From: Halobacteriales archaeon
Lineage (GTDB): Archaea > Halobacteriota > Halobacteria > Halobacteriales > Hikarchaeaceae
Direction: 5' to 3'
Assembly (NCBI GenBank): GCA_042219475.1
Contig: JBDGPX010000007.1
Span: 30,433 to 94,432 of the forward strand
Length of the DNA stretch: 64,000 bases
Below the pieces are notes generated by a model, which saw only the letters and a list, made by a program, of their open reading frames with translations, was not told the origin of the DNA and did not search any database. Within the stretch, counting starts at the first letter, position 1. Every line of letters begins with the position of its first letter. This document shows, in pieces, positions 3,821 to 57,920 of this stretch. The translations under genes were made by a program, and so were the position numbers.

Positions 3821-4657
3821 TCACTCCGGTGGACTGTCCCACTCCGCGCCGTTGTCCTGTGGTTCGTAGCCGATCACGTCCCGAGCATGGTCTAGGTCAT
3901 CGAGCCACCGCGTGTCGTTGTTGCTCACGCCGTAGAACTGATCCCACTCGACCGTCTCGTCTTGGAGACAACAGTCGACCATCTGTGCCAGATCCCGTCG
4001 GGACTGCCAGACCGCCTTCAGTCGGGCAACGCGTTCCGCGTATTCATCGCTCCCGCGTTCCCACCTACCGTCGTCGACTCCCATCTCGGCGTACCCGTAC
4101 GGGTGATCATACTCCGGTGCCAAGACAGCCCCGATCCGTAGTGCGTAAAAACGGATGCCGTGAGCCTCGTTCGCCAGCCGTCCGAGATCCTCGCCGTAGG
4201 TTTTAGTCAGTCCGTAAGGCGAATCGGGTCGGTGTGGCTCCGTTTCATCGATGCGGTAGCTCGTGTCGTGATAGATCTCCGGGCGGTTTCGAACCTCGAC
4301 CATGCCGACGGCGTGGTGTGAGGACGCGAACACGATCGAGTCCAGATCCGCGTCGACCGCCGCCTTGAACACGTTGTTGTGTCCCTGTAGGTTGTCTTTT
4401 ACTGGTTCCATCCAGCCGAGCTCTCGGGAATGGCGGCCGCCAGTTCCCGGAATCAGGGCCAAGTGAACAACGGCATCCATGCCGTCGAAGTGTGGTCGGA
4501 GTGCGTCATAGTCGCGGACGTCCGCCGTAACCGATTCACCGGGGATGTTGTCATCCTCGAGGTCGACGTACGTGAACTCATAGCGGTCGTCGTCGTGGAG
4601 ATGATCCGTAATGGCTGTTCCAACCTTGCCGTTCGCGCCTGTTACAAGGACATCCAT
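3821..4657 (-). CDS. NAD-dependent epimerase/dehydratase family protein
   Basis: 278 aa. N-terminal Rossmann motif MDVLVTGANGKVG. Confidence 0.75.
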   Translation of the reverse strand: MDVLVTGANGKVGTAITDHLHDDDRYEFTYVDLEDDNIPGESVTADVRDYDALRPHFDGMDAVVHLALIPGTGGRHSRELGWMEPVKDNLQGHNNVFKAAVDADLDSIVFASSHHAVGMVEVRNRPEIYHDTSYRIDETEPHRPDSPYGLTKTYGEDLGRLANEAHGIRFYALRIGAVLAPEYDHPYGYAEMGVDDGRWERGSDEYAERVARLKAVWQSRRDLAQMVDCCLQDETVEWDQFYGVSNNDTRWLDDLDHARDVIGYEPQDNGAEWDSPPE

Positions 4658-4686
4658 GTTCCCAGATTCCGAGTGTTCTATTTAAT

Positions 4687-4870
4687 TGTTGTTCAGGGCG
4701 CTAAGTGCCCTTCCTCACGGAGTGAGCCGAAGGCAGGCGAGTAGGGAGGGGATACAGCGCCAGTCACCGTCTTCCGCGTCTTCCGAACAGACCCTCCATC
4801 ACACTTACTCCCCGGACTCGCGGTGTGACCGCGAATTGAGCTCCCACCGTTTTCGCCTACGTAAATTCAC
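4687..4870 (+). repeat. GC-rich hairpin repeat, copy A (colinear with 34507-34711)
   Basis: By-eye alignment to copy B shares the blocks GCTAAG, CCTTCCTCA, CGGAG, GCCGAAGG, GGGAGGG, ATAC, GTCACCG, TCGCGG and CCCACC in the same order. Non-coding. Confidence 0.6.
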
Positions 4871-34444: not shown

Positions 34445-34484
34445 TCGCCGATCTGGCAGTAGTCGTTCTCAACGACCGCCCCGA

Positions 34485-34739
34485 CCGATAGCCGCTGTTG
34501 TTAGCTTGTGCGGTGTGGGGGGCTAAGCCTCCTTCCTCAACGGAGCGGCCGAAGGGACCGCAGTCGGGAGGGAATACAATCAATACGGCGCCCGTCACCG
34601 GCTTACTTTCGACGCAAGCCGACCGTCCGTGAAAAAGCGTGTCGCGGAAGCAGGAAGCCCCACCAAAAGCGAGCGCGTCAGTGCGAGCAGGGTGGAGGAG
34701 TTCACTGACGGTGTTGTTAGCTCAACCAACGGCTATCGG
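34485..34739 (+). repeat. GC-rich hairpin repeat, copy B, bracketed by an 11-bp direct repeat and a 10-bp inverted repeat (MITE-like)
   Basis: CCGATAGCCG (34485-34494) and CGGCTATCGG (34730-34739). TGTTGTTAGCT at 34496-34506 and 34712-34722. Internal modules B1 (34515-34600) and B2 (34655-34707) recur elsewhere in the window. Confidence 0.65.
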
Positions 34740-34808
34740 TGACTAGCTCTCCGATTCTGGTACTCGCTTGGATGCGGAGCGATCCCGTCGTGTTACCGGA
34801 TCGTGAGA

Positions 34809-37720: not shown

Positions 37721-37780
37721 TCGACCCTGCCTCAAGGAGCGAGCGCGTTAGCACGAGCGAGTAGGCAGGGGTAGTTCACT
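37691..37780. repeat. composite palindrome (repeat copy C) spanning the 3' ends of convergent trmO and thrC; likely bidirectional terminator
   Basis: Outer IR AGTGAACT (37691-37698) / AGTTCACT (37773-37780). Inner perfect stem CCCTGCCT (37725-37732) / AGGCAGGG (37763-37770). The loop matches module B2 (AGCGAGCGCGT.AG..CGAGC). Confidence 0.6.
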
Positions 37781-38891
37781 CGCTTTTGAGGCCGCTCCCG
37801 GTGAGCGGGACGACGACGTCGGCGTCGGTCGCGAGGATATCCCGATCCCGATACACCTCGAGCGCCGCCGGTGCGGCAGCACACGTCGGTTCCGTGTAAT
37901 ACCCGTTACTGTGGAGTCGATCGAGAGCGTCCTCGACGGCCGGTTCGCTGACTGCGATCGCATCACCGTCAGTCGTCTCGATCGCCGCGATGATCTGCTC
38001 CTGTCGGGCGGGTTCGCGAATCTGGATCCCGTCGGCGACATCGTTCGTACCCGCCGCCGCCTTTTCCCCGTGGAGGGCGGCGACGATCGGCGCGTAGCCC
38101 GCCGCTTGAGCACCGAGCATTCGGGGGAGTCGGTCGATCCAGCCCGCCTCTTTGAGCGCACGGAACCCACGGTAGGCACCCAAAAAGAGCGTCCCGTGAC
38201 CGAGCGGGCTGACGACGGCCTCCGGCGGTTCCCACTCCCGTTGGGCACACACCTCCATGGCGAAGGTACTCGTCCCGGCGAAGAAGGCCGGATTCCAGGC
38301 GTGACTGGCGTACCAGGTACCGCCGGTTTCGACCCGATCGATACAGGCGTCGGTGACGTCCTCCCGGGATCCTTCGATCCGGATCGGCTCGGCACCCGTC
38401 CGCTCGATCGCTCGAAGCTTTGCCTGTTTGACCCCTGCGGGGACGTAAATCTCGGCTGGAATATCGGCGACCGCGGCATACTGGGCGATGGCCGCCCCGG
38501 CGTTGCCCGAGGAGTCATCAACGATCCGGTCGACGCCCAACTGGGCAGCGCGTGAGAGTAGTGCTGTCGCCCCACGGTCCTTGAAGCTCCCCGAGGGGAA
38601 CACCCATTCCAGTTTGAACTGCGCAGTCCAGTCATCGGCGGAGACCAGCGGCGTAAAGCCCTCGCCAAGGGTCACCCGCGGCGAGATTGGGAGGAAGTCC
38701 GCAAACGCCCAGAGCCCACCCCGTGTATCGAGCGCTGTCGGATCGGGTGCGGGTCCGTCCGGGATGGGTGTCTCGATGAAGTCAAGCGGCCCGCCACAGG
38801 TACACCGCCAAGGTTCGTCCGGTCCACTGTCGTACTCGGTGCCACAGACGCTACAGCGGAGGCCCGTCATACCGCTTCGTTGGCCGGGCAT
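37776..38891 (-). CDS. thrC: threonine synthase (PLP, with N-terminal zinc ribbon)
   Basis: 371 aa. CSVCG...CTCGG N-terminus and PLP-lysine motif PSGSFKDRGA. Confidence 0.75.
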   Translation of the reverse strand: MPGQRSGMTGLRCSVCGTEYDSGPDEPWRCTCGGPLDFIETPIPDGPAPDPTALDTRGGLWAFADFLPISPRVTLGEGFTPLVSADDWTAQFKLEWVFPSGSFKDRGATALLSRAAQLGVDRIVDDSSGNAGAAIAQYAAVADIPAEIYVPAGVKQAKLRAIERTGAEPIRIEGSREDVTDACIDRVETGGTWYASHAWNPAFFAGTSTFAMEVCAQREWEPPEAVVSPLGHGTLFLGAYRGFRALKEAGWIDRLPRMLGAQAAGYAPIVAALHGEKAAAGTNDVADGIQIREPARQEQIIAAIETTDGDAIAVSEPAVEDALDRLHSNGYYTEPTCAAAPAALEVYRDRDILATDADVVVPLTGSGLKSE

Positions 38892-56788: not shown

Positions 56789-57875
56789 ATGGCGAATCAG
56801 GTCACCCACACCTACCTTGCATCCATCCGCAATCACCAGCAGGTGTGCGAGGATCTCGATTCGCTTGGGGTCGCCGCCTCGAAACTCTAGAATGTCGTCC
56901 GGTGGACGTGTGGCCGTATCTGGCACGAAACCGGAACGATACCAGACCACGGTGTTCCCAAAGCGTACCTCAAGGACCACGAACGCTACGCGGATTTGAA
57001 CACACAATCCAGTCAGACAATTTTCGAACAATTGGCTGAGCCGTTCGACTCGTGGTATGCCCACCGTGAGAATGACAACGAGAACGCGAACCCACCCGGT
57101 TACCGAAAACGCGGCGACGACCATCCACGCTCGACGGTCACGTTCAAAGCAGACGGATTCAAGTACGACCCCGACCACAACAGGATTCGGCTCTCGAAAG
57201 GACGAACCCTGAAAGATCGGCGGCGAGACTTCATCCTCTGTGAGTATGCTGCTGACCCGGATATGGCCGTACAGAACTCCAGCAGGTCCGGACGATTACT
57301 ACTTTCAAAAAGAGCGAGCGAAGTGCGATGACAGTTCCTCTCGACAAGCGCGACGGCTGGACCGGAAGCGCAATGAGCGCCGGACACACTTCTTCCACGC
57401 CGTCTCGAAGGACATTGTAGCCGAGTGTGCCGCCCGAAAGGTCGGAACGATTGCCGTGGGCGACCTGACTGGTATTCGCGAAGACGTAGACTGGGGTGAC
57501 CACGGCAACCTCGACGTGCATGGGTGGGCGTTCGACAGGTTCACGGAGATACTGGAATACAAAGCCACCGAGCGCGGTATCACTGTTGAGCGCGTGGATG
57601 AACGGGGTACGTCCAAGTCCTGTGGATCGTGTGGGACCACCGACGACGGCCAGCGTGTCGAACGCGGGCTGTACGTGTGTGAGGAGTGTTGGCTGGTCGC
57701 CAATGCCGACGTGAATGGAGCCGAGAACATCCGAGGGCAGGTACTCCCGACTCTCGTCTGTGACGGAGACGGGGGAGATAGGGATAACGGCTGGACGGCA
57801 CAGCCAGCGGTGCGCCTGTTCGACAAATCGACGGGGAGAGTACGCCCACAAGACCAGGTGAATCGCGAACCATAG
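56789..57875 (+). mobile_element. tnpB: degenerate IS200/IS605-family (IS1341-type) tnpB pseudogene, no tnpA
   Basis: N-terminus MANQVTHTYLASIRNHQQVCEDLDSLGVAASKL, then an in-frame TAG (56888-56890). The frame then continues (NVVRWTCGRIW...NPPGYRKRGDDHPRST). A frame switch 2 -> 3 occurs near 57265-57285, with loss of the segment that should carry the first RuvC Asp motif. The C-terminal part is intact (IAVGDLTGIRE, CGSCG...CEEC zinc finger, NADVNGAENI). Confidence 0.85.
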
Positions 57876-57920
57876 TATCCCAACGCTCGGGAAACCGCGA
57901 CGTGAACGGCGCGGAGGATG

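What the first reader, a model, noticed from the sequence alone, without database searches (positions are those of the whole stretch)
34485..34739. MITE-like ~205-nt insertion bracketed by an 11-bp direct repeat inside a 10-bp palindrome; founder of a window-wide structured repeat family
Seen: the 364-bp gap between the convergent glutaredoxin and HTH-regulator genes has no ORF of haloarchaeal composition. The only ORF there, 34508..34708, is strongly basic. CCGATAGCCG (34485-34494) and its exact reverse complement CGGCTATCGG (34730-34739) bracket the region. Just inside them, TGTTGTTAGCT occurs twice as a perfect direct repeat (34496-34506 and 34712-34722). Deleting one repeat copy plus the ~205 nt between them would leave a plain hairpin with a 10-bp stem. 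So this looks like an insertion with target-site duplication into a pre-existing terminator-like hairpin. The insert holds two GC-rich hairpin modules. B1 (34515-34600) is colinear with 4696-4770. B2 (34655-34707) closely matches 37733-37780, with the blocks AGCGAGCGCGT, AG, CGAGC and AGTTCACT identical. Weaker partial copies are listed separately below. Caveat: copy A also starts with TGTTGTT (4687-4693), so the repeat could be part of the element or a preferred target rather than a true duplication.
Basis: seen in the sequence. Interest (0 to 1): 0.6.

Follow-up and report, generated by a model that had tools for sequence, protein, structure and literature searches.

The report
Decayed gene-less remnant of a TnpB transposon
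The ~200-nt insert is a worn-down, gene-less remnant (a "PATE") of a TnpB-carrying IS200/IS605-type transposon that is common in salt-loving archaea; it is an ordinary, already described kind of mobile-element relic, and only its 11-bp flanking repeat is unusual.

Summary
The sequence features are all real.

- **What it is.** Window 34505-34705 (+) is a PATE, a palindrome-associated transposable element. It consists of the left and right ends of an IS200/IS605-family, IS1341-group (tnpB-only) insertion sequence, fused by a core deletion.
- **Family.** The same ends flank TnpB genes in more than 40 haloarchaeal loci. They match the published Haloquadratum PATE HqIRS71.
- **Ends.** It sits 3' of the target TTAG and ends in ...GTTCAC. 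In 103 of 109 family copies, the 4th target base is Watson-Crick complementary to the base just 5' of the left-end hairpin. That is the pattern expected for IS608-type TnpA cleavage-site recognition.
- **Condition.** This copy lacks about 190 nt present in its closest relatives (~394-nt PATEs). It has lost the 5' half of the omega-RNA scaffold and is mutated at otherwise invariant positions. It is probably inert.
- **The repeat.** The family makes no target duplication (0 of 49 other copies). The right repeat copy lies 6 nt outside the element, so the 11-bp repeat is not an ordinary TSD. Its origin is unresolved.
- **"Window-wide family".** This amounts to three fragments.

Novelty and interest are low.

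The parts
34484..34494 (+). Left arm of the flanking palindrome (ACCGATAGCCG). This is host intergenic DNA, not part of the element.
   Evidence: The exact 11-mer occurs nowhere else in the window; the other matches at up to 1 mismatch all carry a mismatch and sit at scattered, unrelated positions.
34496..34506 (+). Left copy of the 11-bp direct repeat TGTTGTTAGCT. It consists of 5 flank bases, the target TTAG and the first 2 bases (CT) of the element.
34501..34504 (+). TTAG: the target / left cleavage site of the transposon and the predicted TAM for the cognate TnpB.
   Evidence: Conservation starts sharply at TTAN in 109 family copies. Dyall-Smith 2011 Table S9 lists TTAG as the targeting sequence of HqIRS71.
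34505..34705 (+). The PATE itself: 201 nt, left end and right end fused by a core deletion.
   Evidence: Boundaries come from the alignment of flanks of about 110 left ends and 50 right ends. Left-end profile E 1e-9 and right-end profile E 7e-11.
34525..34528 (+). Left-end 'guide' AAGC, immediately 5' of the hairpin foot. Its last base C (34528) is complementary to the G of TTAG.
   Evidence: Covariation G:C 61, C:G 25, A:T 12, T:A 5; 103 of 109 pairs are Watson-Crick.
34529..34574 (+). Left-end subterminal palindrome (CTCCTTCCTC...GGGAGGGAA). It is the presumed TnpA-binding hairpin on the transposed strand. About 7 of 9 consensus stem pairs are kept.
34608..34609 (+). Core-deletion junction. 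About 190 nt present in the closest PATEs (L082, L073) are missing here.
   Evidence: Three-way alignment.
34623..34694 (+). Relic of the last ~24 codons of tnpB (…SVKKRVAEAGSPTKSERVSAS…). It also corresponds to the 3' part of the omega-RNA scaffold.
   Evidence: tblastn against the L068 TnpB, residues 396-419 of 420: 79% identity, E 6.6e-5. Translation.
34654..34657 (+). Right-end 'guide' GAAG, 5' of the right-end hairpin foot. It is positionally homologous to the left-end guide.
   Evidence: Alignment of the left-end and right-end hairpins. Inference by analogy with IS608.
34658..34698 (+). Right-end subterminal palindrome, which is also the terminal omega-RNA stem-loop. It is weakened here: CCCTCA has become CCAAAA and GGGGTAG has become GGAGGAG.
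34702..34705 (+). TCAC: the right cleavage site (transposon-encoded motif) at the very end of the element. Conservation stops immediately after it.
   Evidence: GTTCAC is invariant in the 39 aligned full-length elements, and nothing is conserved in the flanks of about 50 right ends.
34706..34711 (+). TGACGG: a 6-nt spacer between the right end and the right repeat copy, of unknown origin. It would be the first bases of the omega-RNA guide.
34712..34722 (+). Right copy of the 11-bp direct repeat. It lies outside the element and contains a second intact TTAG.
34730..34740 (+). Right arm of the flanking palindrome (CGGCTATCGGT).
4682..4780 (+). Copy A: target TTAA (4682-4685) plus a left end of the same family. 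No recognisable right end follows.
   Evidence: Left-end profile E 6.6e-16. N = A pairs with N' = T at 4706.
37725..37779 (+). Copy C: a solo right-end terminal hairpin ending in GGGGTAGTTCAC, starting 5 nt after the stop codon of the upstream gene.
   Evidence: Right-end profile E 1.8e-9. Sequence.

Best explanation
Window 34505-34705 (+ strand) is a PATE (palindrome-associated transposable element). [quoted passage not shown] The full-length form carries a DUF2080 gene, tnpB and, overlapping the 3' end of tnpB, the omega guide RNA.

Shown here:
- Its LE and RE are homologous to the ends that bracket TnpB genes in many Halobacteria.
- It sits directly 3' of TTAG and ends in ...GTTCAC.
- It is the ~394-nt PATE type seen in two other archaeal MAGs, minus a further ~190 nt.
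- It has lost the 5' half of the omega-RNA scaffold and is mutated at otherwise invariant positions of both hairpins.

Inferred:
- Like IS608, such elements move as single-stranded DNA ('peel and paste'), catalysed by a Y1 TnpA supplied in trans.
- TnpA would bind the LE and RE hairpins and find its cleavage sites by pairing them with the 4 nt just 5' of each hairpin: flank TTAG with AAGC at the LE, and terminal TCAC with GAAG at the RE.
- The element inserted 3' of a TTAG exposed in the loop of a pre-existing intergenic hairpin.
- The core deletion most likely happened in place.
- The copy is now an inert relic, neither a working guide RNA nor a good TnpA substrate.
- The 11-bp flank repeat is not a product of the normal mechanism. 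It is either an aberrant right-end joining repaired by priming on the upstream flank, or a pre-existing short local duplication.
For: - A B1-like and a B2-like segment flank a 412-aa ORF in viral contig L031. That ORF is TnpB (Pfam OrfB_IS605, Cas12f1-like_TNB, HTH_OrfB_IS605; NCBIfam guided_TnpB at 292 bits against a cut-off of 100). It is preceded by a DUF2080 transposase-associated ORF.
58 LE hits are followed by a TnpB homologue. The LE-to-RE distance is mostly 1450-1820 nt, about 10 copies measure 280-385 nt, and the finding measures 128 nt.
- The boundaries are sharp: conservation starts at TTAN and stops after GTTCAC.
- The 4th target base is complementary to the base 5' of the LE hairpin foot in 103 of 109 copies, with all four pair types. 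None of 10000 permutations reached this value.
- The published PATE HqIRS71 has the same ends, TTAG|CTGAATACAGGCGCTAAGC... and ...GGGGTAGTTCAC. The PATE class is described as lacking inverted repeats and target duplications and as arising from IS605-type elements by core deletion.
- Alignment with L082 and L073 shows a ~190-nt internal gap.
- The RE region of full-length elements folds into three helices, and 13 pairs show compensatory changes. The finding keeps only the 3' strands of two of these helices.
- The finding differs at 28 of 82 RE columns that are at least 90% conserved (family median 1, maximum 13). It differs at 6 of 43 such LE columns (family median 0).
- A relic of the TnpB C-terminus is 79% identical over 24 aa.
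- The syntenic spacer is 59-143 bp in relatives and 364 bp here.
Against: - No empty site could be obtained. The closest homologue of the flanking regulator anywhere in the protein collection is 74% identical, so the insertion is inferred from spacer length and element anatomy, not observed.
- The 11-bp flank repeat is not expected for this family (0 of 49 other copies) and remains unexplained.
- No tnpA was looked for in the window or the MAG, and transposition in trans is not demonstrated.
- Transcription was not assessed. A PATE-derived RNA has been reported as functional in Halobacterium salinarum (abstract of PMC4615843), so 'inert' is an inference from sequence decay.
- The covariation counts are not phylogenetically independent events, because a few subfamilies dominate the sample.
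Confidence: 0.92

Rival explanations
1. It is a classical MITE. On this reading a DDE-transposase-dependent miniature element made an 11-bp target-site duplication when it inserted into the hairpin.
For: There is a perfect 11-bp direct repeat on both sides. Removing the insert and one repeat copy restores a strong hairpin.
Against: - The segment between the repeats (34507-34711) has no terminal inverted repeats.
- Its left part starts exactly at the canonical TTAG|CT boundary of an IS200/IS605 family.
- Its conserved right end stops 6 nt before the right repeat copy.
- All homologous elements lack flank duplications.
- The published class description says there are no ITRs and no target duplications.
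Confidence: 0.03
2. It is a domesticated, PATE-derived small RNA or 3'-UTR element. On this reading the remnant is transcribed, for example with the glutaredoxin mRNA on the + strand, and is kept for an RNA-level function.
For: - The region folds better than shuffles (z -2.3 on the + strand, -3.2 on the - strand).
- It lies 60 nt downstream of the glutaredoxin stop codon on the same strand.
- A PATE-derived intergenic RNA is reported to affect growth in H. salinarum.
Against: - The fold signal is what two transposon-end hairpins plus the flanking palindrome would give anyway.
- The copy is mutated at family-invariant positions and lacks the partners of two omega-RNA helices.
- There is no Rfam match.
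- No orthologous copy exists in relatives (spacers of 59-143 bp), so there is no evidence of conservation.
Confidence: 0.08
3. It is an orphan trans-acting omega RNA. On this reading the remnant still supplies a guide (TGACGGTGTTGTTAGC...) to a TnpB encoded elsewhere in the genome.
For: PATEs often encode omega RNAs that TnpB would have to act on in trans (Meers et al.). The 3' scaffold stem-loop and the GTTCAC junction are present.
Against: - The 5' half of the scaffold is deleted, including the near-invariant ACGCCTGTGGAGACTGCGCTCCCTGT and two long-range helices.
- The terminal stem is weakened, and near-invariant positions next to the guide junction are mutated.
- The only tnpB in the window is frameshifted and belongs to another subfamily.
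Confidence: 0.04
4. This rival concerns the origin of the repeat only. On this reading the locus already carried a short local duplication (TGTTGTTAG-N6-TGTTGTTAG) and the element simply used the first of two TTAG targets, by the canonical mechanism.
For: - Nine-mer direct repeats at offsets of 9-30 nt occur 22 times in this 64-kb window, so such a site is not exotic.
- All canonical TnpA scenarios require the duplication to pre-exist.
- The left junction is perfectly canonical.
Against: - The insertion point would have to coincide exactly with the end of the first repeat copy. My estimate from the counts (an inference, not computed by a tool) is roughly 22/64000 per element, or about 2% for at least one case among 50.
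- The single-copy reconstruction gives a much neater hairpin, with the target in its loop.
Confidence: 0.35

Closest known systems
PATE HqIRS71 and related 'terminal-only' IS605-type remnants of Haloquadratum walsbyi (Dyall-Smith et al. 2011, PLoS One 6:e20968; PMC3119063)
   Same: - The published ends TTAG|CTGAATACAGGCGCTAAGC... and ...GGGGTAGTTCAC closely match the ends of the family found here.
- It has no inverted terminal repeats.
- It has near-terminal palindromes.
- It is too short to encode a transposase.
- It retains part of the tnpB C-terminal coding region.
- It arises by core deletion.
   Different: - This copy is 201 nt, against 543-590 nt for HqIRS71.
- It comes from an unrelated Halobacteriales MAG.
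- It belongs to the subfamily with a longer LE leader (TTAG|CTTNTGCGGTG...), shared with L082 and L073.
- It is more decayed.
- It carries an 11-bp flank repeat that the class is stated not to produce.
IS608 / ISDra2 (IS200/IS605 family), TnpA Y1 'peel and paste' transposition. The motif details are recalled from Barabas et al. 2008 and Guynet et al. 2009 and were not re-read here.
   Same: - It inserts 3' of a 4-nt target.
- It has subterminal hairpins at both ends.
- The cleavage sites pair with the 4 nt 5' of each hairpin foot. As recalled, IS608 uses TTAC/AAAG and TCAA/GAAT; here the pairs are TTAN/AAGN' and TCAC/GAAG.
- Covariation supports the LE pair.
- It makes no target duplication.
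   Different: The elements here carry tnpB (plus DUF2080) but no tnpA, so TnpA must act in trans. No biochemical evidence exists for this family. The target's 4th base varies naturally (G, C, A, T) together with the guide.
Omega RNA / sotRNA of IS1341-type tnpB (Gomes-Filho et al. 2015, PMC4615843; Rfam sot0042, RF02656)
   Same: In full-length relatives, the RE region overlapping the tnpB 3' end is a structured RNA with covariation, and it ends exactly at the transposon boundary.
   Different: The finding keeps only the 3' ~80 nt of that scaffold. Neither it nor its full-length relative L031 matches any Rfam family. The sot0042 match in the window (57739-57915) belongs to a different subfamily.
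PATE-like non-autonomous IS605 elements of Geobacillus stearothermophilus (Meers et al. 2023; PMC10055086)
   Same: These are gene-less elements with conserved LE and RE, TAM and TEM motifs, and often an omega RNA. They are presumed to be mobilised in trans.
   Different: They are bacterial, have unrelated sequences and have intact omega RNAs. The copy here is truncated.
Classical MITEs
   Same: They are short, non-coding, non-autonomous and multi-copy.
   Different: MITEs have terminal inverted repeats related to a DDE transposon and usually make target duplications. This family has neither.

Membership tests
PATE / IS200-IS605 (IS1341-group) derivative | The ends are homologous to the LE and RE of tnpB-carrying IS605-type elements. 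| tested here: met
   LE profile E 1e-9 and RE profile E 7e-11. The same ends flank TnpB in L031 and in more than 40 genome loci. They match the published HqIRS71 ends.
PATE / IS200-IS605 (IS1341-group) derivative | There are no terminal inverted repeats, and subterminal palindromes are present at both ends. | tested here: met
   The element starts CTTGTGCGG and ends GAGTTCAC, which are not inverted repeats. The hairpins lie at 34529-34574 and 34658-34698. The LE and RE hairpins are homologous to each other.
PATE / IS200-IS605 (IS1341-group) derivative | It lies immediately 3' of a conserved 4-5-nt target that is recognised through a complementary internal guide. | tested here: met
   TTAG lies at 34501-34504 and the guide base C at 34528. 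The pairing is Watson-Crick in 103 of 109 copies.
PATE / IS200-IS605 (IS1341-group) derivative | There is no target-site duplication. | tested here: inconclusive
   The family meets this feature: flank repeats are 6 nt or less in 49 other copies. This copy has an 11-bp repeat whose right copy is offset 6 nt from the RE. Its origin is unresolved.
PATE / IS200-IS605 (IS1341-group) derivative | It is too short to encode a transposase or TnpB. | tested here: met
   The element is 201 nt. Its only ORF has no family hit. Only a 24-codon tnpB relic remains.
PATE / IS200-IS605 (IS1341-group) derivative | It is mobilised as single-stranded DNA by a Y1 TnpA acting in trans. | not testable with these tools
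   This needs transposition or cleavage assays. The presence of tnpA in the MAG was not examined.
Functional omega RNA (TnpB guide RNA) | A complete conserved scaffold (three helices in this subfamily) sits directly upstream of the RE boundary. | tested here: not met
   The 5' strands of two helices are deleted. 28 of 82 conserved columns differ.
Classical MITE | Terminal inverted repeats are related to a DDE transposon. | tested here: not met
   There are no inverted termini. The only inverted repeat is the host hairpin outside the direct repeats, and it is not repeated elsewhere in the window.
Classical MITE | A target-site duplication directly abuts both termini, in every copy. | tested here: not met
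   Only this copy has a flank repeat, and 6 nt separate the conserved right end from it.
Rfam RNA families (sot0042, HgcC and others) | A covariance-model score at or above the family's gathering threshold. | tested here: not met
   Nothing reaches the threshold at 34.5 kb. The best match is msiK at 17 bits against a gathering score of 33.

The most novel reading that the evidence does not exclude
The flank repeat may record a non-canonical integration. In that scenario TnpA joined the left end correctly to a TTAG exposed in a hairpin loop, but the right-end strand transfer failed. The free 3' end was then rescued by priming on the complementary strand about 11-16 nt upstream. That would leave 6 nt of filler and a TSD-like duplication of the upstream flank. 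If true, IS200/IS605-type elements can occasionally leave target duplications, and hairpin loops can serve as their single-stranded targets.
Probability: 0.2. Interest if true: 0.4.

Novelty: new member of a known kind. Interest (0 to 1): 0.2.

Why it matters
For annotation, this stretch and the fragments at 4.7 kb and 37.7 kb should be labelled as IS200/IS605 (IS1341-type) PATE remnants. They should not be labelled as a new structured RNA family or a MITE.

The comparative by-product is modestly useful. Across about 110 haloarchaeal copies, the 4th base of the target (TTAG, TTAC, TTAA or TTAT) tracks a single base next to the left-end hairpin. This is a natural retargeting series that predicts the TAM of each associated TnpB.

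The odd flank repeat is a small curiosity. It could bear on how single-strand transposons occasionally mis-integrate.

Tried and rejected
- **Known RNA families.** The Rfam scan of the window and a permissive local scan found nothing at 34.5 kb. The full-length relative L031 also has no Rfam family.
- **tRNA/tmRNA.** Only one tRNA-Ser is found, elsewhere in the window.
- **Bulge-helix-bulge or rRNA-like processing stem formed by the palindrome and repeats.** I considered this by eye, and the bulge geometry does not fit.
- **Exact-protein look-up of the source contig.** This failed twice.
- **Empty-site search.** The nearest regulator homologues are only 74% identical. Their loci keep the synteny but have no alignable spacer.
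- **First viral scan with an 18-nt motif.** It gave 34 hits. nhmmer with the finding as query matched only one of them, L031, which was the key lead.
- **Metagenome scan with a subfamily-specific 31-mer.** It found nothing. A size-class pattern found one independent mini-element, L159, of another subfamily and without a flank repeat. So no second copy with the same deletion junction was found.
- **Palindrome arms as TIRs of a larger element.** The exact arm sequence occurs nowhere else in the window.
- **General preference of the family for hairpin targets.** Reconstructed empty sites of 46 elements are not hairpin-enriched (mean z -0.3).
- **Bacterial-type promoter and terminator scan.** It was uninformative for an archaeon.
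- **Resemblance of the right flank to the start of the LE.** TGACGGTG resembles TGTGCGGTG, which would suggest a circle junction. I judged the resemblance not significant.

Full report
**1. The observation**

- The 10-bp palindrome arms lie at 34485-34494 and 34730-34739; the pairing is 11 bp if 34484/34740 are included.
- The 11-mer TGTTGTTAGCT lies at 34496-34506 and 34712-34722. With up to 1 mismatch there are 3 matches in the window against 0.07 expected.
- There is a 66-aa basic ORF with no family match.
- The left module resembles window 4687-4797 (nhmmer E 1.7e-6). The right module resembles 37731-37783 (E 0.08).
- Rfam and ARAGORN find nothing at this locus.
- The region folds somewhat better than shuffled sequence on both strands (z -2.3 and -3.2).

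**2. What it is**

The key lead was viral contig L031. There, a B1-like segment (105-218) and a B2-like segment (1609-1692) lie 1.4 kb apart and bracket two ORFs.
- The 412-aa ORF is TnpB. It hits Pfam OrfB_IS605, Cas12f1-like_TNB and HTH_OrfB_IS605. It also hits NCBIfam guided_TnpB at 292 bits against a cut-off of 100.
- The 50-aa ORF is a DUF2080 transposase-associated protein.

So B1 is a left end (LE), and B2 is the right end (RE), which overlaps the 3' end of tnpB.

- 58 LE hits are followed by a TnpB homologue; most of the others are cut off by the end of the locus.
- The distance from the LE motif to the RE terminus (...AGTTCAC) is mostly 1450-1820 nt. About ten copies measure 280-385 nt. 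The finding measures 128 nt.

This is the published class of palindrome-associated transposable elements (PATEs). The class has no inverted terminal repeats, has near-terminal palindromes, makes no target duplications, is too short to encode a transposase, and is derived from IS605-type (IS1341/tnpB) transposons by core deletion (Dyall-Smith et al. 2011). Table S9 of that paper lists PATE HqIRS71 with ends TTAG|CTGAATACAGGCGCTAAGC... and ...GGGGTAGTTCAC, closely matching the ends of the family found here.

**3. Boundaries and likely mechanism**

Right-anchored comparison of about 110 left flanks shows that conservation begins abruptly at TTAN. Apart from a T bias at position -1, the upstream positions are unbiased. 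About 50 right flanks lose all conservation immediately after GTTCAC.

In the window this gives the following coordinates:
- target TTAG at 34501-34504;
- element at 34505-34705;
- terminal TCAC at 34702-34705.

The 4th target base is Watson-Crick complementary to the base immediately 5' of the LE hairpin foot (..GCTAAG-N'-CCCCTTCCTC..) in 103 of 109 distinct copies. The counts are G:C 61, C:G 25, A:T 12 and T:A 5. No permutation out of 10000 reached this value. Most of the six exceptions are parsing or register artefacts.

The LE and RE hairpins are homologous to each other (cross-hits). By position, the RE has GAAG 5' of its hairpin and TCAC at its tip.

This parallels the IS608 scheme as I recall it from Barabas 2008 and Guynet 2009, which I did not re-read: C_L TTAC with G_L AAAG, and C_R TCAA with G_R GAAT. 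Meers et al. describe the same TAM/TEM logic. I therefore infer single-strand 'peel and paste' mobilisation by a Y1 TnpA acting in trans, and TTAG as the TAM of the cognate TnpB. Neither was tested here. The covariation counts are not phylogenetically independent events.

**4. State of this copy**

- Its nearest relatives are two ~394-nt PATEs in other MAGs: L082 (89% identity over the RE half) and L073.
- Relative to them, the finding lacks about 190 nt between 34608 and 34609. The junction shows only 2-3 nt of microhomology, judged by eye from that alignment.
- In 39 full-length elements the RE region folds into three helices, and 13 pairs show compensatory changes. This is a typical omega-RNA/sotRNA arrangement.
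- The finding retains only the 3' strands of the two long-range helices, plus a weakened terminal stem. CCCTCA has become CCAAAA, and GGGGTAG has become GGAGGAG.
- It differs at 28 of 82 RE columns that are at least 90% conserved (family median 1, maximum 13). It differs at 6 of 43 such LE columns (family median 0, maximum 8).
- The frame 34626-34712 still reads SVKKRVAEAGSPTKSERVSAS.... This is 79% identical over 24 aa to the C-terminus of the L068 TnpB (E 6.6e-5).
- A metagenome scan with a subfamily-specific 31-mer found nothing. A scan for LE+RE elements of this size class found one independent mini-element of another subfamily, L159.

I conclude that this is a decayed, probably inert relic, and that its second deletion most likely occurred in place.

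**5. The palindrome and the 11-bp repeat**

- Among 50 elements with both ends, only this copy shares more than 6 nt between its left flank and the 40 nt beyond its RE. So the family's mechanism does not make duplications.
- The left repeat copy is 5 flank bases plus TTAG plus the element's first two bases (CT). The right copy lies 6 nt (TGACGG) beyond the RE and carries a second TTAG.
- The palindrome arms are not a repeated element.
- Removing the element, the spacer and one repeat copy gives a hairpin of -14.5 kcal/mol (z -4.1) with TTAGCT in its loop.
- Hairpin targets are not a family habit: the mean z over 46 reconstructed sites is -0.3.

Two explanations remain.
- (a) The duplication pre-existed. 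Nine-mer repeats at offsets of 9-30 nt occur 22 times in this window. However, the insertion point would have to fall exactly at the end of the first copy. My estimate from those counts is about 2% for at least one such case among 50 elements.
- (b) The left-end joining was canonical and the right-end joining was aberrant. It would have been repaired by priming on the complementary strand upstream of the insertion point, leaving filler plus a TSD-like duplication.

I cannot decide between them without an empty allele.

**6. Synteny**

- The source is a Halobacteriales MAG (P0001, 100% identity over a 112.7-kb contig). The next-best regulator homologues are only 74% identical.
- Their loci keep the order TiaS, regulator, glutaredoxin (the last two convergent) and arylsulfotransferase-like gene. 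Their spacers are 59 bp (L154) and 143 bp (L155/L156), against 364 bp here.
- Subtracting the 216-nt insert leaves 148 bp. This is consistent with an insertion, but it is not a sequence-level empty site.

**7. The 'window-wide family'**

Family profiles find only three fragments in 64 kb:
- the finding;
- copy A, an LE at about 4682-4780 with target TTAA paired to N' = T;
- copy C, a solo RE hairpin at 37725-37779.

A frameshifted tnpB with an Rfam sot0042 match at 56996-57915 belongs to a different IS1341 subfamily.

**8. Verdict**

This is a new, degraded member of a known kind. 'MITE', 'target-site duplication' and 'founder' do not. Interest is low. The unexplained flank repeat and the clean natural target/guide covariation are the only points worth a second look.

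Noticed in passing
window 56996-57915 (+): A frameshifted tnpB is split into two ORFs, 56996..57331 and 57240..57875. The second has OrfB_IS605 and Cas12f1-like_TNB domains. It overlaps an Rfam sot0042 (RF02656) match at 57739-57915 (88.9 bits against a gathering score of 88). Its right end reads ...GGAGGATGTCA, so it belongs to a different IS1341 subfamily from the finding.
   Followed up: partly
window 4682-4780 (+), next to gene 3821..4657 (-): Copy A is a left-end-only fragment whose target is TTAA. This AT-rich target lies 25-30 nt upstream of the ATG of an epimerase-like gene on the opposite strand. That is where the TATA box of a leaderless-type archaeal promoter would sit (reverse complement CAATTAAATAG). 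The insertion may therefore have landed in, or may now form part of, that promoter.
   Followed up: partly
window 37725-37779 (+): Copy C is a solo right-end terminal hairpin ending in a perfect GGGGTAGTTCAC. It starts 5 nt after the stop codon of the upstream + strand gene. Everything upstream of the hairpin has been replaced by coding sequence.
   Followed up: partly
loci L036-L153 (genome scan), LE region: The family splits into subfamilies by target: TTAG, TTAC, TTAA and TTAT. Each has the complementary base next to the LE hairpin. The TnpB proteins of these subfamilies would be expected to differ in TAM specificity at one position. This was not examined.
   Followed up: no
L082 247-640 (-) and L073 4503-4900 (+): Two ~394-nt PATEs from different MAGs share the same architecture, about 80% identity and an apparently complete omega-RNA region, but have different flanks. 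They are candidate trans-acting guide-RNA carriers.
   Followed up: partly
L159 6397-6600 (-), JGI contig Ga0209946_1000007: An independent ~208-nt LE+RE mini-element of another subfamily, with a different deletion junction and no flank repeat. It shows that ultra-short forms arise repeatedly.
   Followed up: yes
window 34706-34713 compared with 34506-34514: The 8 nt after the right end (TGACGGTG) resemble the first bases of the left end (TGTGCGGTG), as a circle junction would. I judged this not significant, but it is unexplained.
   Followed up: partly
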